IMG/VR virus record: IMGVR_UViG_3300037851_000431
Coordinates: 1 to 64,000 of that record
DNA from: a virus
Length of the DNA stretch: 64,000 nt
Direction: 5' to 3' (one strand)
Each line of letters starts with the position of its first letter. The stretch's first letter is position 1. Shown here in pieces: positions 7,345 through 9,928 of this stretch. The notes below the pieces were generated by a model. It was given only the letters and a program-made list of their open reading frames with translations, did not search any database and was not told where the DNA came from. Made by a program: the position numbers and the translations under genes.

Positions 7345-8892
7345 ATGGCTAGATTAAATACGAAAAAAATTCCAACTAAGATGGAAGAATTAACTGTTAA
7401 CTATGAAGGTGCTGAAGCATATAAGCTTCCTGTAAAGATGCGCTTAGTTGAGCGTGTTGTAGGAGCCTTTTGGAGCGAGGATTTATTCTACGCTACCGGA
7501 AAGGAAATCAGTGGGGAAATCCTGAAAGATATTCAGGAAGTTGCCAAATCTGATCCTAAATTTATTTTACAGCTTGCCGTGTTTGCACGCAATGAGTTGT
7601 ACCTTCGAACAACTCCACAGGTTTTACTTGTTGAGGCGTCGTATATCGCAGAATGCAAGCCTTTTGTTGAGGAGTACACCTCTAAGATTGTACGCCGAGC
7701 CGACGAGTTAACTGAGGTAGTTGCTTATCATATAAGTCGAATGGGAAGTAAGAAAAACTTCGCTAACTCGCTTAAGAGGGGATTAGCGAATGCTTTTCAG
7801 TCATTCGATGAATATCAGTTGAATAAGTACAAGGGCAATACTTCAAGCGTTTCACTTGGCGATGTTGTGAAGATTGTTCACCCAACTTTCAAGGGTGATG
7901 AAGAGTACCGAAAGGCTCTATACGCATATCTAACCAAGGGGGAGGTATCCCCTGTTCTTACAAAGGTATCGGCACTTAAAACCCTGCTTTCACGCGAATC
8001 TTTTGATGATGAGGCTAAGTCTCTCATTAACCAGTCAGCGGCAACGTGGGAATCTGTTGTATCAAAATTTGGCTCAACCAAGGAAGTTTGGGAAGCCATG
8101 ATACCTAAGATGGGTTATATGGCACTTCTTAGGAACCTTCGAAATTTTGAAGAGAAAAATGTTCAATTAAATTCTGTAATTGAACGGTTAACGAATGAAG
8201 AAGAGGTTAAGCGTTCAAAGCAGCTTCCATTCCGGTTTTATGCCGCCCATCAGGAGGTTAAAACCCCTCAGTTAAAGAAAGCCGTTTCCAAGGCATTTGA
8301 GTTATCTATTAATAATACTGTTTTGGGTGGATCAACTGCTGTACTTGTTGACCTTTCGGGATCAATGTATGGTCACACTGTAAGTAAGGGTTCTAAGATG
8401 CTTTATACAGATGTTGCAGCAGTAATGGGCGCAATAGCTGTAAAGAAATCCGAATATCCTGTAGTTATTGCCTTTGCTAACAGTGCAACAAGGGTAGATG
8501 TTGATCCAGATGATACTATGATGACTACAATGAAGAATATTCTTAATTGTGGTGAGGGTGGAGGAACATATGCGTATAAGGCATTTGAAAATCTGCTACA
8601 GAATAAGCACATTAAGTTTGATCGTGTAGTCATGTTTTCAGATATGCAGTGTTATACTGAGAAAAATTATGATGGAAACGATGTTTCCAAACTTTGGAAA
8701 GAATATGTAAACACAGTTAATAAAGATGCTGTGCTATACTCTTTTGATCTTTCTGGATATGGTACATCCAAGTTTAATTCGAAATCTAAAAATGTTGTTA
8801 CAGTAGCGGGTTGGTCTGATAAGATTCTTGATTTTATCAACCTTCACGAAAAAGACAAGAATTTACTTTTGAACGAAATTGCAAAAATGTGA
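7345..8892 (+). CDS. Ro60/Rsr-like TROVE-domain RNA-binding protein with C-terminal vWA domain
   Basis: MARLN start, NYEGAEAY, FDEYQLNKY, HP, TWES, YMALLRNLRN, SKQLPFRF, MIDAS DLSGSM, FSDMQ. Strong AGGAGGT RBS. Confidence 0.93.
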   Translation: MARLNTKKIPTKMEELTVNYEGAEAYKLPVKMRLVERVVGAFWSEDLFYATGKEISGEILKDIQEVAKSDPKFILQLAVFARNELYLRTTPQVLLVEASYIAECKPFVEEYTSKIVRRADELTEVVAYHISRMGSKKNFANSLKRGLANAFQSFDEYQLNKYKGNTSSVSLGDVVKIVHPTFKGDEEYRKALYAYLTKGEVSPVLTKVSALKTLLSRESFDDEAKSLINQSAATWESVVSKFGSTKEVWEAMIPKMGYMALLRNLRNFEEKNVQLNSVIERLTNEEEVKRSKQLPFRFYAAHQEVKTPQLKKAVSKAFELSINNTVLGGSTAVLVDLSGSMYGHTVSKGSKMLYTDVAAVMGAIAVKKSEYPVVIAFANSATRVDVDPDDTMMTTMKNILNCGEGGGTYAYKAFENLLQNKHIKFDRVVMFSDMQCYTEKNYDGNDVSKLWKEYVNTVNKDAVLYSFDLSGYGTSKFNSKSKNVVTVAGWSDKILDFINLHEKDKNLLLNEIAKM

Positions 8893-8893
8893 C

Positions 8894-8923
8894 TTGAAAT
8901 CGGCACTCTATGAGTGTTATAAT
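8894..8923 (+). promoter_or_regulatory. sigma70-type extended -10 promoter for the ncRNA array
   Basis: TTGAAA-N18-TATAAT with TGn; predicted +1 falls at the 5' end of ncRNA 1. Confidence 0.7.
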
Positions 8924-8924
8924 A

Positions 8925-8996
8925 ATATGGGTAGTGTGAAAGGGGATACTTCGACTTGAAACCGCTAAAACCCCCCTTCGTTTTTCTCTCCCATAT
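8925..8996 (+). ncRNA. Y-RNA-like element 1 (short payload)
   Basis: Terminal stem ATATGGG/CCCATAT, TAGTG, inner purine/pyrimidine stem, TACTTC, pyrimidine tract; directly after Ro60. Confidence 0.7.
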
Positions 8997-9009
8997 AATT
9001 AAAAACTAA

Positions 9010-9142
9010 TTAGGTAGTGCAGTGTAGGATTTCTTCGCTTTGGGAGCCTCTGATGTAGGTGCGATTCCTACTCCCCCGAACAACGGGGGATAGCTTAATA
9101 GTAAAGCAGGGTTTGAAGCCTACGCGCGTTCTTCTCTCCTAA
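9010..9142 (+). ncRNA. Y-RNA-like element 2 carrying a circularly permuted tRNA-Pro(TGG)
   Basis: TTAGG/CCTAA, TAGTG, GTGTAGG/CCTACGC, TTCTTC. Payload order: anticodon loop, T arm, closed acceptor hairpin, D arm. Confidence 0.8.
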
Positions 9143-9145
9143 TGC

Positions 9146-9221
9146 GGCCCTATCGTCTAATGGCTCAGGATAACAGACTTTCAATCTGTTGATCGGGGTT
9201 CGATCCCCCGTGGGGCTACCA
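9146..9221 (+). tRNA. tRNA-Glu(TTC)
   Basis: ACAGA-CTTTCAA-TCTGT, CCA. Confidence 0.93.
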
Positions 9222-9236
9222 ACCATAGATAGAAAT

Positions 9237-9368
9237 TGGGGTAGTGACTACTACAGTTACTTCTATTCACCATACTTATGAATTGTAGTGAAATGGTATC
9301 ACGCTTGGCCTTTAACCAAGAGTTACGGTTCGATTCCGGTAATGTCTGTAGTAAAATTTCTCTCCCCA
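9237..9368 (+). ncRNA. Y-RNA-like element 3 carrying a permuted tRNA-Lys(TTT)-like module
   Basis: TGGGG/CCCCA, TAGTG, TACTACAG/CTGTAGTA, TACTTC. Payload order: acceptor 3' strand plus CCA, acceptor 5' strand, D, anticodon, T. Confidence 0.78.
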
Positions 9369-9391
9369 TCTTCTCTAAAAGAAGGTAATTA

Positions 9392-9607
9392 ATGAAAAAA
9401 TTAGATATATTTTTGATAATAGGTATTATGATACTAATTGCTATAGTTGTAGCATTAGTAGGTGGAATAATATTCACATTTTTATGGAATTTAGTTATTC
9501 CTGTAGCATTTAATGGACCAACACTTTCCCTTATAGAAGGAACAGCTTTAATGCTATTGATTCAATTAGTTTTAGCTCCATTAAGTGTTTCAGTTAAAAC
9601 AAGGTAG
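9392..9607 (+). CDS. small two-helix membrane protein
   Basis: Hydrophobic 71 aa ORF with RBS; its TAG stop is the TAG of element 4's TAGTG. Confidence 0.65.
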   Translation: MKKLDIFLIIGIMILIAIVVALVGGIIFTFLWNLVIPVAFNGPTLSLIEGTALMLLIQLVLAPLSVSVKTR

Positions 9608-9694
9608 TGTAGTTATTGGATACTTCGGTGGGTTTGAACCCACGGGTCTTGGTGGAGACTTTTATACGTTCCAATAACGACTCCCCCTCCTTGT
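9599..9694 (+). ncRNA. Y-RNA-like element 4 (T-arm plus closed acceptor-like minihelix)
   Basis: ACAAGG/CCTTGT, TAGTG, GTTATTGGA/TCCAATAAC, TACTTC; two payload hairpins. Confidence 0.72.
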
Positions 9695-9709
9695 ATTTAT
9701 TAAAGTTAA

Positions 9710-9846
9710 TTAGAGTAGTGTTAGTATCAGTTACTTCGGTAAAGCACAAAACATTGAATTTTGAGATTGTAAGTTCGACTCTTACCCTCCCTACTCAGTT
9801 TGGGAGGAAGCTATAAAAACGCTGATACGCCCGTTACCCTCTCTAA
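9710..9846 (+). ncRNA. Y-RNA-like element 5 carrying a permuted tRNA-Gln(TTG)-like module
   Basis: TTAGAG/CTCTAA, TAGTG, GTATCAG/CTGATAC, TACTTC; payload opened in the D loop. Confidence 0.8.
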
Positions 9847-9852
9847 ACTTAT

Positions 9853-9928
9853 TCCGGTGTAGCTCAATTGGTAGAGCGGTTGACTGTTAATCAACTGGTT
9901 GTAGGATCGTACCCTACCACCGGAGCCA
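9853..9928 (+). tRNA. tRNA-Asn(GTT)
   Basis: GTTGA-CTGTTAA-TCAAC, atypical T loop ATCGTAC, CCA. Confidence 0.9.

What the first reader, a model, noticed from the sequence alone, without database searches (positions are those of the whole stretch)
7345..9846. Ro60/TROVE gene followed by an array of five Y-RNA-like ncRNAs with a shared scaffold and interchangeable tRNA-derived payloads
Seen in the sequence: right after the Ro60 stop and a promoter, five elements (8925-8996, 9010-9142, 9237-9368, 9599-9694, 9710-9846) share one plan. The plan is terminal stem, invariant GTAGTG, inner stem, T[AT]CTTC, variable payload, inner stem complement, pyrimidine tract, terminal complement. The stems differ in sequence but keep pairing. 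Terminal: ATATGGG/CCCATAT, TTAGG/CCTAA, TGGGG/CCCCA, ACAAGG/CCTTGT, TTAGAG/CTCTAA. Inner: GTGTAGG/CCTACGC, TACTACAG/CTGTAGTA, GTTATTGGA/TCCAATAAC, GTATCAG/CTGATAC. Established: bacterial Ro60 (Rsr) binds adjacent Y RNAs, and the YrlA class has a tRNA-like module joined through the anticodon-stem position; some phages encode Ro. Unusual here: five paralogues, a GUAGUG motif rather than the GNCGAA motif I recall for YrlA, payloads from different tRNA species, retained anticodon loops, and a different opening point in each. Inference: a modular Ro60-RNP library displaying tRNA mimics, for example as decoys for host anticodon nucleases or tRNA-targeting toxins, or as adaptors recruiting different tRNA-binding enzymes.
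Basis: partly seen in the sequence, partly recalled or inferred. Interest (0 to 1): 0.95.

Follow-up and report, generated by a model that had tools for sequence, protein, structure and literature searches.

The report
Phage Ro60 gene with five Y RNAs
A phage encodes the RNA-binding ring protein Ro60 followed by five small RNA genes that share one conserved two-helix handle and carry different tRNA-like pieces; they belong to a large class of Ro60 partner RNAs that the Rfam library does not detect, a variant of a known system rather than a new one.

Summary
Downstream of a Ro60/TROVE+vWA gene (7345-8892) lie five elements, interleaved with tRNA-Glu, tRNA-Asn and a small membrane ORF. All five share this plan: terminal helix, GUAGUG-NA loop, inner helix, UACUUC, payload, inner helix', pyrimidine loop ending UUCUC, terminal helix'.

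A covariance model built from other phages finds exactly these five in the 105.7-kb genome and nothing else. The same model finds over 400 copies next to Ro60 genes in viral, metagenomic and bacterial DNA. All but one are on the Ro60 strand, and none lies elsewhere in about 24 Mb of whole genomes. Both helices covary strongly.

Rfam YrlA does not reach threshold on any copy, and the published GNCGAA motif is absent. The architecture nevertheless matches the YrlA Ro60-binding module, and some relatives carry GCGAAG at the GUAGUG position. These are therefore Y RNAs of an unmodelled variant class.

Payloads:
- E1: minimal.
- E2: classical T-acceptor-D tRNA mimic, Pro-like.
- E3: closed acceptor with internal CCA plus D, anticodon and T arms.
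- E4: two hairpins.
- E5: tRNA-like body opened in the D loop.

Arrays of five to seven copies are common. Binding, expression and any decoy role remain untested. This scan has flagged similar Ro60 RNA arrays on other DNA.

The parts
7345..8892 (+). Ro60 / Rsr-like protein gene (515 aa, TROVE ring plus vWA domain)
   Evidence: ORF. Pfam TROVE 1.6e-40 and vWA_Ro60 1.1e-08. PHROG 850 'RNA-binding protein' 3.3e-49. PDB 9KOP/9L5Y, phiLo Ro60, 1.6e-39.
8894..8923 (+). Sigma-70-like promoter consensus (TTGAAA, 18-nt spacer, TGT-TATAAT)
   Evidence: 11 of 12 matches with an extended -10. This is a consensus match only. The predicted start, about 8929-8931, lies inside E1's terminal stem.
8925..8996 (+). 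E1: minimal Y RNA (72 nt), scaffold plus a short loop, YrlB-like
   Evidence: R2 47.8 bits, E 1.5e-7. Belongs to the 70-80-nt length class that makes up half of family members.
9009..9143 (+). E2: YrlA-architecture Y RNA. Scaffold (AUUUCUUC variant), Pro-like 7-nt loop hairpin, T arm, closed acceptor hairpin, D arm
   Evidence: R2 32.7 bits. Rfam YrlA positions 23-89 at 30.7 bits over 9047-9115. In an 8-sequence alignment 22 of 31 pairs are compensatory. The permuted sequence best matches the phage tRNA-Pro(UGG), with GCUUUGGGAGC identical.
9146..9221 (+). tRNA-Glu(UUC), 3 nt after E2
   Evidence: ARAGORN. Rfam tRNA 59.6 bits.
9237..9368 (+). E3: Y RNA with a tRNA-like body. Closed acceptor hairpin (CUAUUCA-CCA-loop-UGAAUUG, 9263-9285), D arm, anticodon-like arm (loop CCUUUAA), degenerate T arm joined to the scaffold
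   Evidence: R2 39.8 bits. Rfam tRNA 35 bits at 9280-9347, but ARAGORN finds no tRNA there. An orthologous layout occurs in L009:5282-5429 with a different, perfectly paired acceptor hairpin followed by U-CCA.
9392..9607 (+). 71-aa hydrophobic ORF between E3 and E4; its TAG stop lies inside E4's GGUAGUG
   Evidence: ORF list and translation. No Pfam or PHROG hit. Whether it is a real gene was not established.
9599..9694 (+). E4: mid-size Y RNA (96 nt) with two payload hairpins (GUGGG-UUUGAA-CCCAC and GUCU-UGGUGG-AGAC)
   Evidence: R2 43.7 bits, E 1e-6. Fold. No clear payload orthologue found.
9710..9846 (+). E5: Y RNA with a tRNA-like body opened in the D loop. Order: GG-UA-AAGC (3' half of D arm), anticodon-like arm (loop CAUUGAA), T arm (GUAAG-UUCGACU-CUUAC), closed acceptor hairpin, AA-GCU (5' half of D stem)
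   Evidence: R2 30.8 bits. Rfam tRNA positions 9-63 at 25.4 bits. The type is conserved in L010:5509-5647, L089:2121-2262 and L004:6094-6222, with compensatory changes in the anticodon-like and T arms.
9853..9928 (+). tRNA-Asn(GUU), 6 nt after E5
   Evidence: ARAGORN. Rfam tRNA 67.4 bits.

Best explanation
The locus is a phage Ro60 ribonucleoprotein cassette. It holds a Ro60 ring-protein gene followed by an array of five Y RNA genes, probably co-transcribed with the interleaved tRNAs.

Each RNA has the same Ro60-docking handle: a terminal helix formed by its two ends, an asymmetric internal loop (5' side UAGUG-N-A, 3' side G..U..UUCU), an inner helix closed by G:C, and an invariant UACUUC.

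Each RNA displays a different apical module. Three of these are differently permuted tRNA-like bodies.

The handle is a lineage-specific form of the stem-loop-stem Ro60-binding module known from YrlA, YrlB and Yrn RNAs. By analogy with characterised Ro60-Y RNA particles, the RNAs would dock on Ro60's outer surface, gate its cavity, and use the tRNA-like modules to tether Ro60 to host tRNA- or RNA-processing proteins. PNPase is the precedent.

Shown here: the RNA family, its structure, and its exclusive linkage to Ro60 genes. Inferred: transcription, processing, binding to Ro60, and the partners of the payloads.
For: 1. Model R2 finds the five elements and nothing else in the 105.7-kb genome.

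2. R2 finds many copies beside Ro60 genes. The counts are 175 hits in 70 viral Ro60 loci (174 on the Ro60 strand), 115 in 67 metagenome loci (all on that strand) and 133 in 80 bacterial or MAG Ro60 loci (all on that strand).

3. In five complete phage genomes (about 1.0 Mb) and five bacterial genomes (23.5 Mb), every hit lies beside the Ro60 gene.

4. Covariation is strong. In 143 members 89.9% of cells pair, against 53.6% in shuffles and 40-48% when partners are slid. All 17 pairs show double changes. Even the G:C pair that closes the terminal helix switches to A:U.

5. UACUUC is essentially invariant.

6. Paralogues within one locus share the 5' loop hexamer (0.85 identity, against 0.62 between loci). 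Their helices differ almost as much within a locus as between loci (0.40 against 0.32). This fits one protein partner per genome.

7. E2 has the YrlA T-acceptor-D domain.

8. The closest solved Ro60, from phage phiLo, binds Y-like RNAs through a stem-bulge-stem carrying CGAA. There a C-to-U change cost only about 3-fold in affinity (PMC12135203).

9. Y RNAs within 4 kb of Ro60 on the same strand, several per genome, tRNA-like, and co-transcribed with tRNAs are all established (PMC4201824).

10. tRNA genes start 3 and 6 nt after E2 and E5.
Against: There is no binding assay.

Rfam YrlA does not reach its threshold: 30.7 against 69 bits, and only over the tRNA-like part of E2.

The published GNCGAAN0-1G motif is absent from the + strand of all five elements.

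Model R2 does not hit the two experimentally bound phiLo RNAs, Yrl1 and Yrl2. It hits only a different site downstream of that gene. No family member therefore has direct biochemical support.

The alignments used for covariation were fitted to the model structure, which leans the counts towards that structure.

The only strong promoter-like site would start transcription inside E1's terminal stem.
Confidence: 0.82

Rival explanations
1. Decoy or adaptor library. The Ro60-bound RNAs display different faces of tRNA (anticodon arms, elbow, CCA-bearing acceptor) so as to soak up host tRNA-cleaving defence nucleases, or to recruit particular tRNA enzymes during infection.
For: E2, E3 and E5 keep 5-bp stem and 7-nt loop anticodon-like arms, which described YrlA lacks (10.1101/312249). 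Those arms covary and keep their geometry in related phages. E2's loop is identical to that of the phage tRNA-Pro. Relatives carry Lys(CUU)-like arms inside the same handle (L008 and L009). The phage invests in 24 tRNAs of its own.
Against: The anticodon triplet is not conserved among E5 orthologues (UUG, AAU, UUU, UUA). U33 is replaced in E3 (C) and E5 (A). No anticodon nuclease, RNA ligase, RtcB or CCA enzyme is evident in the genome. Half of the family has no tRNA-like payload at all. The host is unknown and there are no functional data.
Confidence: 0.1
2. Structured tRNA precursors. The handle is a leader-trailer helix that guides processing or quality control, and the payloads are released as working tRNAs or tRNA fragments.
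For: In relatives the handle encloses complete cloverleaves in native order. One has a 7-bp acceptor stem and ACCA (L142:853-992, tRNA 60 bits). NCCA is enriched at the start of acceptor-hairpin loops (5 of 34). M. smegmatis YrlA is cut by RNase P and receives CCA (PMC4201824).
Against: In this window no payload can be released as a tRNA. E2, E3 and E5 are permuted, with acceptor ends joined by a loop. E1 and E4 have no tRNA body. ARAGORN calls none of them. The short members keep the handle without any cargo.
Confidence: 0.05
3. Decaying tRNA genes or chance hairpins in a tRNA-rich intergenic region, with no function.
For: The single-sequence folds are not much more stable than shuffles (z from -0.55 to -1.9). 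The region lies within a tRNA array.
Against: Hundreds of copies show compensatory changes in both helices, invariant motifs, strict same-strand linkage to Ro60, and absence elsewhere in 24 Mb.
Confidence: 0.02

Closest known systems
YrlA / YrlB Y RNAs with Rsr (Ro60) of Salmonella, Mycobacterium smegmatis and mycobacteriophages (Chen et al. 2014, PMC4201824; Rfam RF02553; structure in 10.1101/312249)
   Same: Encoded within a few kb of Ro60 on the same strand, with several per genome. The ends pair into a long stem interrupted by an internal loop, followed by a second helix and a conserved Y-U-A-Y/UA junction. One RNA (E2) carries the T arm, closed acceptor and D arm tRNA mimic. A short form (E1) resembles YrlB.
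   Different: No GNCGAAN0-1G motif; the loop reads UAGUG-N-A instead. UACUUC and a 3' UUCUC are conserved. The Rfam model scores only the tRNA-like part, at 30.7 against 69 bits. E3 and E5 use break points not described for YrlA, and both keep anticodon-like arms, which YrlA lacks.
Deinococcus radiodurans Yrn1 / Yrn2 with Rsr and PNPase (RYPER)
   Same: Several Y RNAs lie next to rsr and are made as a polycistron with a tRNA. Yrn1 has a tRNA-like part in a different orientation from YrlA, including an anticodon-like arm. The Y RNA tethers Ro60 to an effector.
   Different: Yrn RNAs keep the metazoan-like GGUCCGA-type helix on both strands. No sequence or model similarity to them was detected here, and no PNPase link was tested.
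Thermus phage phiLo Ro60 with Yrl1 / Yrl2 (PMC12135203; PDB 9KOP, 9L5Y)
   Same: It is the closest solved Ro60 to this protein (E 1.6e-39). It is a phage Ro60 that binds phage-encoded stem-bulge-stem RNAs and can join host PNPase.
   Different: Yrl1 and Yrl2 lie upstream of the gene, were picked by a CGAA motif, and are not matched by model R2. R2 instead matches an unreported site just downstream of the phiLo gene.
Circularly permuted tRNA-like RNAs (permuted tmRNA, permuted tRNA genes)
   Same: The tRNA body is encoded in rotated order, with the natural ends joined by a loop.
   Different: Here the new ends are not free. They continue into a conserved protein-binding handle, and three different rotations coexist in one array.

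Membership tests
Bacterial/phage Y RNA (Ro60-associated ncRNA, functional class) | Encoded close to a Ro60/TROVE gene (within about 4 kb) on the same strand | tested here: met
   All five lie 33-954 nt downstream of the Ro60 stop on the + strand. Family-wide, all but 1 of more than 400 hits are on the Ro60 strand. None lies away from Ro60 in whole genomes.
Bacterial/phage Y RNA (Ro60-associated ncRNA, functional class) | About 70-150 nt, with 5' and 3' ends paired into a long stem interrupted by an internal loop that holds the Ro60 site | tested here: met
   Lengths are 72-137 nt. There are two covarying helices around an asymmetric loop, 89.9% paired against 53.6% in shuffles.
Bacterial/phage Y RNA (Ro60-associated ncRNA, functional class) | Physically bound by Ro60 in vivo or in vitro | not testable with these tools
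   No binding data. The only indirect support is that the loop hexamer is shared within a genome and differs between genomes.
YrlA (Rfam RF02553) | Reaches the Rfam gathering score (69 bits) | tested here: not met
   The best hit is 30.7 bits over model positions 23-89 in E2. The other elements have no hit or 17.8 bits. None of 60 related loci reaches the threshold.
YrlA (Rfam RF02553) | GNCGAAN0-1G motif near the 5' end | tested here: not met
   There is no + strand match within 8925-9846. Only 11 of 143 family members have CGAA in the 5' loop.
YrlA (Rfam RF02553) | tRNA-like domain in the order T arm, closed acceptor-like hairpin, D arm | tested here: met
   Met for E2 only. E1 and E4 lack it. 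E3 and E5 have other orders.
YrlA (Rfam RF02553) | No anticodon loop and no free CCA (Wang et al. 2018) | tested here: not met
   E3 and E5 keep 5-bp/7-nt anticodon-like arms, and E2 keeps a 7-nt Pro-like loop. E3 encodes CCA after the acceptor 3' strand, inside a loop.
tRNA (RF00005) | Complete cloverleaf with free acceptor ends, U33, called by tRNA finders | tested here: not met
   E3 9280-9347 scores 35 bits (threshold 29), but ARAGORN rejects it. Position 33 is C, the T stem is degenerate, and the ends run into the handle.

The most novel reading that the evidence does not exclude
The handle is a general docking adaptor that lets one Ro60 ring be armed with interchangeable tRNA faces. The faces are the elbow with a closed acceptor (E2), a CCA-bearing acceptor plus anticodon arm (E3), and an anticodon arm with T arm on a split D arm (E5). 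The array would then work as a counter-defence or tRNA-surveillance toolkit that intercepts host tRNA-targeting nucleases or recruits distinct tRNA enzymes. This mode of phage-host conflict has not been described for Ro60.
Probability: 0.12. Interest if true: 0.85.

Novelty: new variant of a known kind. Interest (0 to 1): 0.58.

Why it matters
Ro60 and Y RNAs are conserved from bacteria to humans, yet what the RNA modules recruit is still unclear.

This locus and its relatives show that the commonest Ro60-linked RNAs in phages and in many Firmicutes, CPR and other genomes are missed by the Rfam model (0 of 60 related loci) and, in the window, lack the published motif. They include the cultured gut phage crAss001, Bacillus phage G and Streptomyces phage BRock.

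A handle-based model recovers more than 400 of them. It shows that about half have no tRNA mimic. It also shows that the tRNA-like body can be attached to the handle at three or more different points, sometimes with a full anticodon arm or an encoded CCA.

That gives experimentalists tractable systems (crAss001, phage G) and natural 'domain-swap' series. With these they can test what the tRNA-like modules bind and whether Ro60 RNPs take part in phage-host conflicts over tRNA.

Tried and rejected
The 80-87% identical Ro60 relatives (P0002-P0004) could therefore not be fetched for orthologue-by-orthologue comparison.
- A single-protein scan of viral contigs found nothing. The alignment-based scans worked.
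- MAFFT alignments of whole elements misplace the 3' half. I therefore seeded a model from one sequence with a hand-written structure and rebuilt it from its own hits.
- Rfam in E-value mode gave no Y_RNA hit or other family hit on the handle.
- No payload except E2 shows specific similarity to any of the phage's 24 tRNAs. 'Different tRNA species' could therefore not be assigned for E3, E4 or E5.
- R2 does not match the published phiLo Yrl1/Yrl2, so no biochemical link could be made.
- RtcB, Rnl-type RNA ligase and CCA-adding enzyme families are absent from the 88%-complete genome record. An RNA-repair context is therefore not supported here.
- A simple regex for 'acceptor strand + NCCA + complement' after CUUC gave mostly noise.
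- The resemblance of GUAGUG to the upper stem of human Y1 RNA was considered and rejected as coincidence. Here GUAGUG has no CACUAC partner and sits in a loop.
- The reviews PMC10870794 and PMC6047535 and the supplements of Chen 2014 are not held. I could not check whether some T-acceptor-D members were already listed in those supplements.
Full report
**1. What is in the window**

The window is the first 64 kb of a 105.7-kb IMG/VR virus record, estimated 88% complete. It carries 24 tRNA genes.

The ORF at 7345-8892 (+) encodes a 515-aa protein with a TROVE domain (1.6e-40) and a Ro60-type vWA domain. It matches PHROG 850. Its closest solved structure is the Ro60 of Thermus phage phiLo (PDB 9KOP/9L5Y, E 1.6e-39), ahead of Deinococcus Rsr and vertebrate Ro60. 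It is a bona fide Ro60 orthologue.

**2. Check of the observation**

Reading the sequence and parsing it by script confirms the plan in all five elements: terminal stem, GUAGUG, 1-3 nt, inner stem, (A/U)U(A/U)CUUC, payload, inner-stem complement, pyrimidine-rich linker ending UCUC or CCUC, terminal complement.

GTAGTG is not over-represented in the window as a whole (21 found, 22 expected), but six copies sit within 0.8 kb.

Single-sequence folding is not impressive on its own (z from -0.55 to -1.9). The case therefore rests on comparative evidence.

**3. Relatives and a model of the handle**

The Ro60 protein has many relatives at 46-87% identity on contigs of about 110-120 kb. An alignment of 38 of them retrieved 80 viral loci, 80 metagenome loci and 80 bacterial or MAG loci.

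A regex anchored on GTAGTG...CTTC already showed the same plan, on the Ro60 strand, next to Ro60 in dozens of loci. Some of those Ro60s are only 30-37% identical to the query.

I seeded a covariance model from one short element of another phage with a hand-drawn two-helix structure. I then rebuilt it from its 74 hits as model R2.

R2 finds exactly the five window elements (30.8-47.8 bits, E 1.5e-7 to 5e-4). Nothing else appears in the window or in the whole genome up to E=10. Four of the five were not in the seed.

**4. Linkage to Ro60**

At E<=0.01, R2 gives:
- 175 hits in 70 viral loci, 174 of them on the Ro60 strand.
- 115 hits in 67 metagenome loci, all on that strand.
- 133 hits in 80 bacterial or MAG loci, all on that strand. 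These include the Bacillus cereus group, Clostridia, Ruminococcus, Patescibacteria and Myxococcales.

In five complete phage genomes (about 1.0 Mb, including crAss001, Bacillus phage G and Streptomyces phage BRock), all 18 hits lie within a few kb of the Ro60 gene. In five bacterial genomes (23.5 Mb), all 7 hits lie at the Ro60 locus. In that last search only 150 first-look candidates per genome were scored.

**5. Structure**

On 143 members from viral loci:
- 89.9% of cells form standard pairs, against 53.6% after shuffling (0 of 500 shuffles reach the observed value) and 40-48% when partners are slid.
- All 17 pairs show double (compensatory) changes.
- The G of GUAGUG pairs with the C of CUC, and this pair switches to A:U in 16 sequences.

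These alignments are fitted to the model, which favours the structure. The margin is nevertheless large, and the helices differ freely in sequence.

The column consensus is:
- an 8-bp terminal helix;
- a 5' loop (U/A)(A/U)G(U/C)G-N-A;
- a 9-bp inner helix closed by G:C (96%);
- then U(100%) A(96%) C U U C (100% each);
- the payload;
- the inner helix';
- G-N-Y..U..UUCU;
- the terminal helix'.

**6. Relation to the known Ro60 site**

Chen et al. 2014 defined YrlA by a 5' GNCGAAN0-1G motif and a T arm, acceptor-like hairpin and D arm tRNA mimic. They found 355 candidates in 254 bacteria and 22 phages, always within 4 kb of Ro60 on the same strand, with two or more Y RNAs per species.

None of the five elements has GNCGAA on the + strand. 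Rfam YrlA (threshold 69 bits) reaches only 30.7 bits, and only over positions 23-89, the tRNA-like part of E2. It reaches threshold in none of 60 related loci.

The architecture is nevertheless the same as in the Rfam YrlA consensus: stem, 5-nt loop AUGCu, stem, CUA. Family members span a continuum at the 5' loop: GUAGUG, GCAGUG, GAAGCG, GAUGCG. Some read GAUGCGAAG or GGUGCGAAG and so contain CGAA(G).

The UA of UACUUC occupies the place of the conserved UA (YUAY) that kinks the stem in the YrlA crystal structure (10.1101/312249).

In phiLo, the CGAA motif sits in a stem-bulge-stem contacted by Ro60, and a C-to-U change costs only about 3-fold in affinity.

I therefore read GUAGUG-N-A as a lineage variant of the known docking loop, not as a new kind of site.

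One further result supports a role as protein contact. Paralogues within one locus share the loop hexamer (identity 0.85, against 0.62 between loci). Their helices are hardly more alike within a locus than between loci (0.40 against 0.32, and 0.46 against 0.39).

**7. Payloads**

Across the 143 members, 72 are short (under 105 nt, no tRNA body). Another 44 have a canonical T arm starting about 47-49 nt from the 5' end (YrlA order). In 11 the T arm lies late, and 16 are long without a canonical T arm.

In the window:
- **E1** is the short form.
- **E2** has the YrlA order. An 8-sequence alignment including Bacillus gives T, acceptor-hairpin, D and linking stems, with 22 of 31 pairs compensatory. 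It folds as a perfect cloverleaf and best matches tRNA-Pro(UGG) (score 67, next best 55). An 11-nt stretch, GCUUUGGGAGC, covers the anticodon loop and is identical. E2's clade relatives also carry a UGGG-containing stretch at this position.
- **E3** scores 35 bits with the tRNA model in native order. The better reading is a closed acceptor hairpin, CUAUUCA-CCA-UACUUA-UGAAUUG, followed by D, anticodon-like (CCUUUAA) and weak T arms. The orthologous element L009:5282-5429 has a different, perfectly paired hairpin, UAUUGAC-U-CCA...GUCAAUA, in the same place.
- **E4** has two hairpins and no recognisable orthologue.
- **E5** is a tRNA-like body opened in the D loop. Its order is GG-UA-AAGC, then an anticodon-like arm, then a canonical T arm, then a closed acceptor hairpin, then AA-GCU. 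The GCU/AGC D stem becomes GUU/AAC in L010 and L089. The anticodon-like arm covaries at 4 of 5 pairs across four phages. Its triplet is not conserved: UUG, AAU, UUU, UUA.

Apart from E2, no payload resembles a particular phage tRNA.

**8. Context and likely biogenesis**

tRNA-Glu starts 3 nt after E2 and tRNA-Asn 6 nt after E5. In relatives, handles and tRNAs alternate with gaps of 1-6 nt. This suggests polycistronic transcripts cut by RNase P and other tRNA-processing enzymes, as shown for Yrn2-tRNA-Yrn1 in Deinococcus.

The best promoter-like site (8894-8923) would start transcription inside E1's terminal stem, so the true start is open.

No RtcB, Rnl-type ligase or CCA-adding enzyme was found in the genome record.

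**9. Function**

By analogy with characterised systems, the RNAs most likely dock on Ro60, gate it, and tether it to host factors through their apical modules.

The decoy or adaptor 'library' idea is compatible with the retained anticodon-like arms. It has no direct support, and the anticodon triplet is not conserved between orthologues.

**10. Novelty**

Already known: phage Ro60 genes with adjacent Y RNAs, several Y RNAs per genome, and tRNA mimicry.

Apparently undescribed in the papers I could reach and absent from Rfam 15:
- the handle signature;
- the size of this class;
- the attachment points used by E3 and E5;
- the retained anticodon-like arms and the encoded CCA.

Other windows of this scan have flagged comparable Ro60 arrays of 'handle plus tRNA piece'. 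I did not check whether their handle is the same.

Verdict: a real feature and a new variant of a known kind, of moderate to high interest.

Noticed in passing
L168:5193-5336 (Bacteroides phage crAss001, NC_049977.1, unannotated 905-nt gap downstream of the TROVE gene gp96): A 144-nt tRNA-like RNA (Rfam tRNA 46.6 bits) has an open acceptor stem, a D arm and a T arm. Its anticodon arm is replaced by a circularly permuted copy of the same handle: inner stem' CUUUGUUC, AAUGUUC, terminal stem CACA-GUAA-UGUG closed by a tetraloop, UUGGUGUA, inner stem GAAUAGAG, UUACUUC. A standard handle RNA lies at L168:5015-5100 (47.6 bits).
   Followed up: partly
L251:4485-4552 (Thermus phage phiLo, MH673673.1): The only match of the handle model in the phiLo Ro60 locus lies 12 nt downstream of the Ro60 stop (26.5 bits, E 4.6e-4) and overlaps the start of the annotated CDS phiLo_25. 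The published Yrl1 and Yrl2, upstream of the gene, are not matched.
   Followed up: partly
window 9392-9607: A 71-aa strongly hydrophobic ORF with a plausible ribosome-binding site sits between E3 and E4. Its TAG stop codon is part of E4's GGUAGUG. It has no Pfam or PHROG match.
   Followed up: partly
L142:853-992; L008:6085-6221; L009:5933-6064: In relatives the handle encloses whole cloverleaves in native order. One has a 7-bp acceptor stem plus ACCA (Rfam tRNA 60 bits). Two are called tRNA-Lys(CUU) by ARAGORN, with part of the conserved UACUUCG serving as the acceptor 5' strand.
   Followed up: partly
A8 members (viral loci), acceptor-like hairpins after the T arm: Five of 34 acceptor-hairpin loops begin with N-CCA, where about 1.6% would be expected by chance. 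This suggests that an encoded tRNA 3' end is retained in a subset of these RNAs.
   Followed up: partly
window 8894-8923: This is the best sigma-70-like site in the region (11 of 12, extended -10). It would place the transcription start at about 8929-8931, inside E1's terminal stem. Either E1's stem is shorter in vivo or the RNAs come from an upstream transcript.
   Followed up: no
L171 (7.8-kb contig binned in a Flavobacteriaceae MAG): It carries a Ro60 51% identical to the window's, with three handle RNAs. This is a weak hint that the phage clade infects Bacteroidota, or that the contig is phage DNA mis-binned.
   Followed up: no
L170:5492-5655 (Streptomyces phage BRock): A near-threshold match to the manA RNA motif (49.7 against 55.2 bits) lies between two tRNA-Lys genes near the Ro60 gene.
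   Followed up: no
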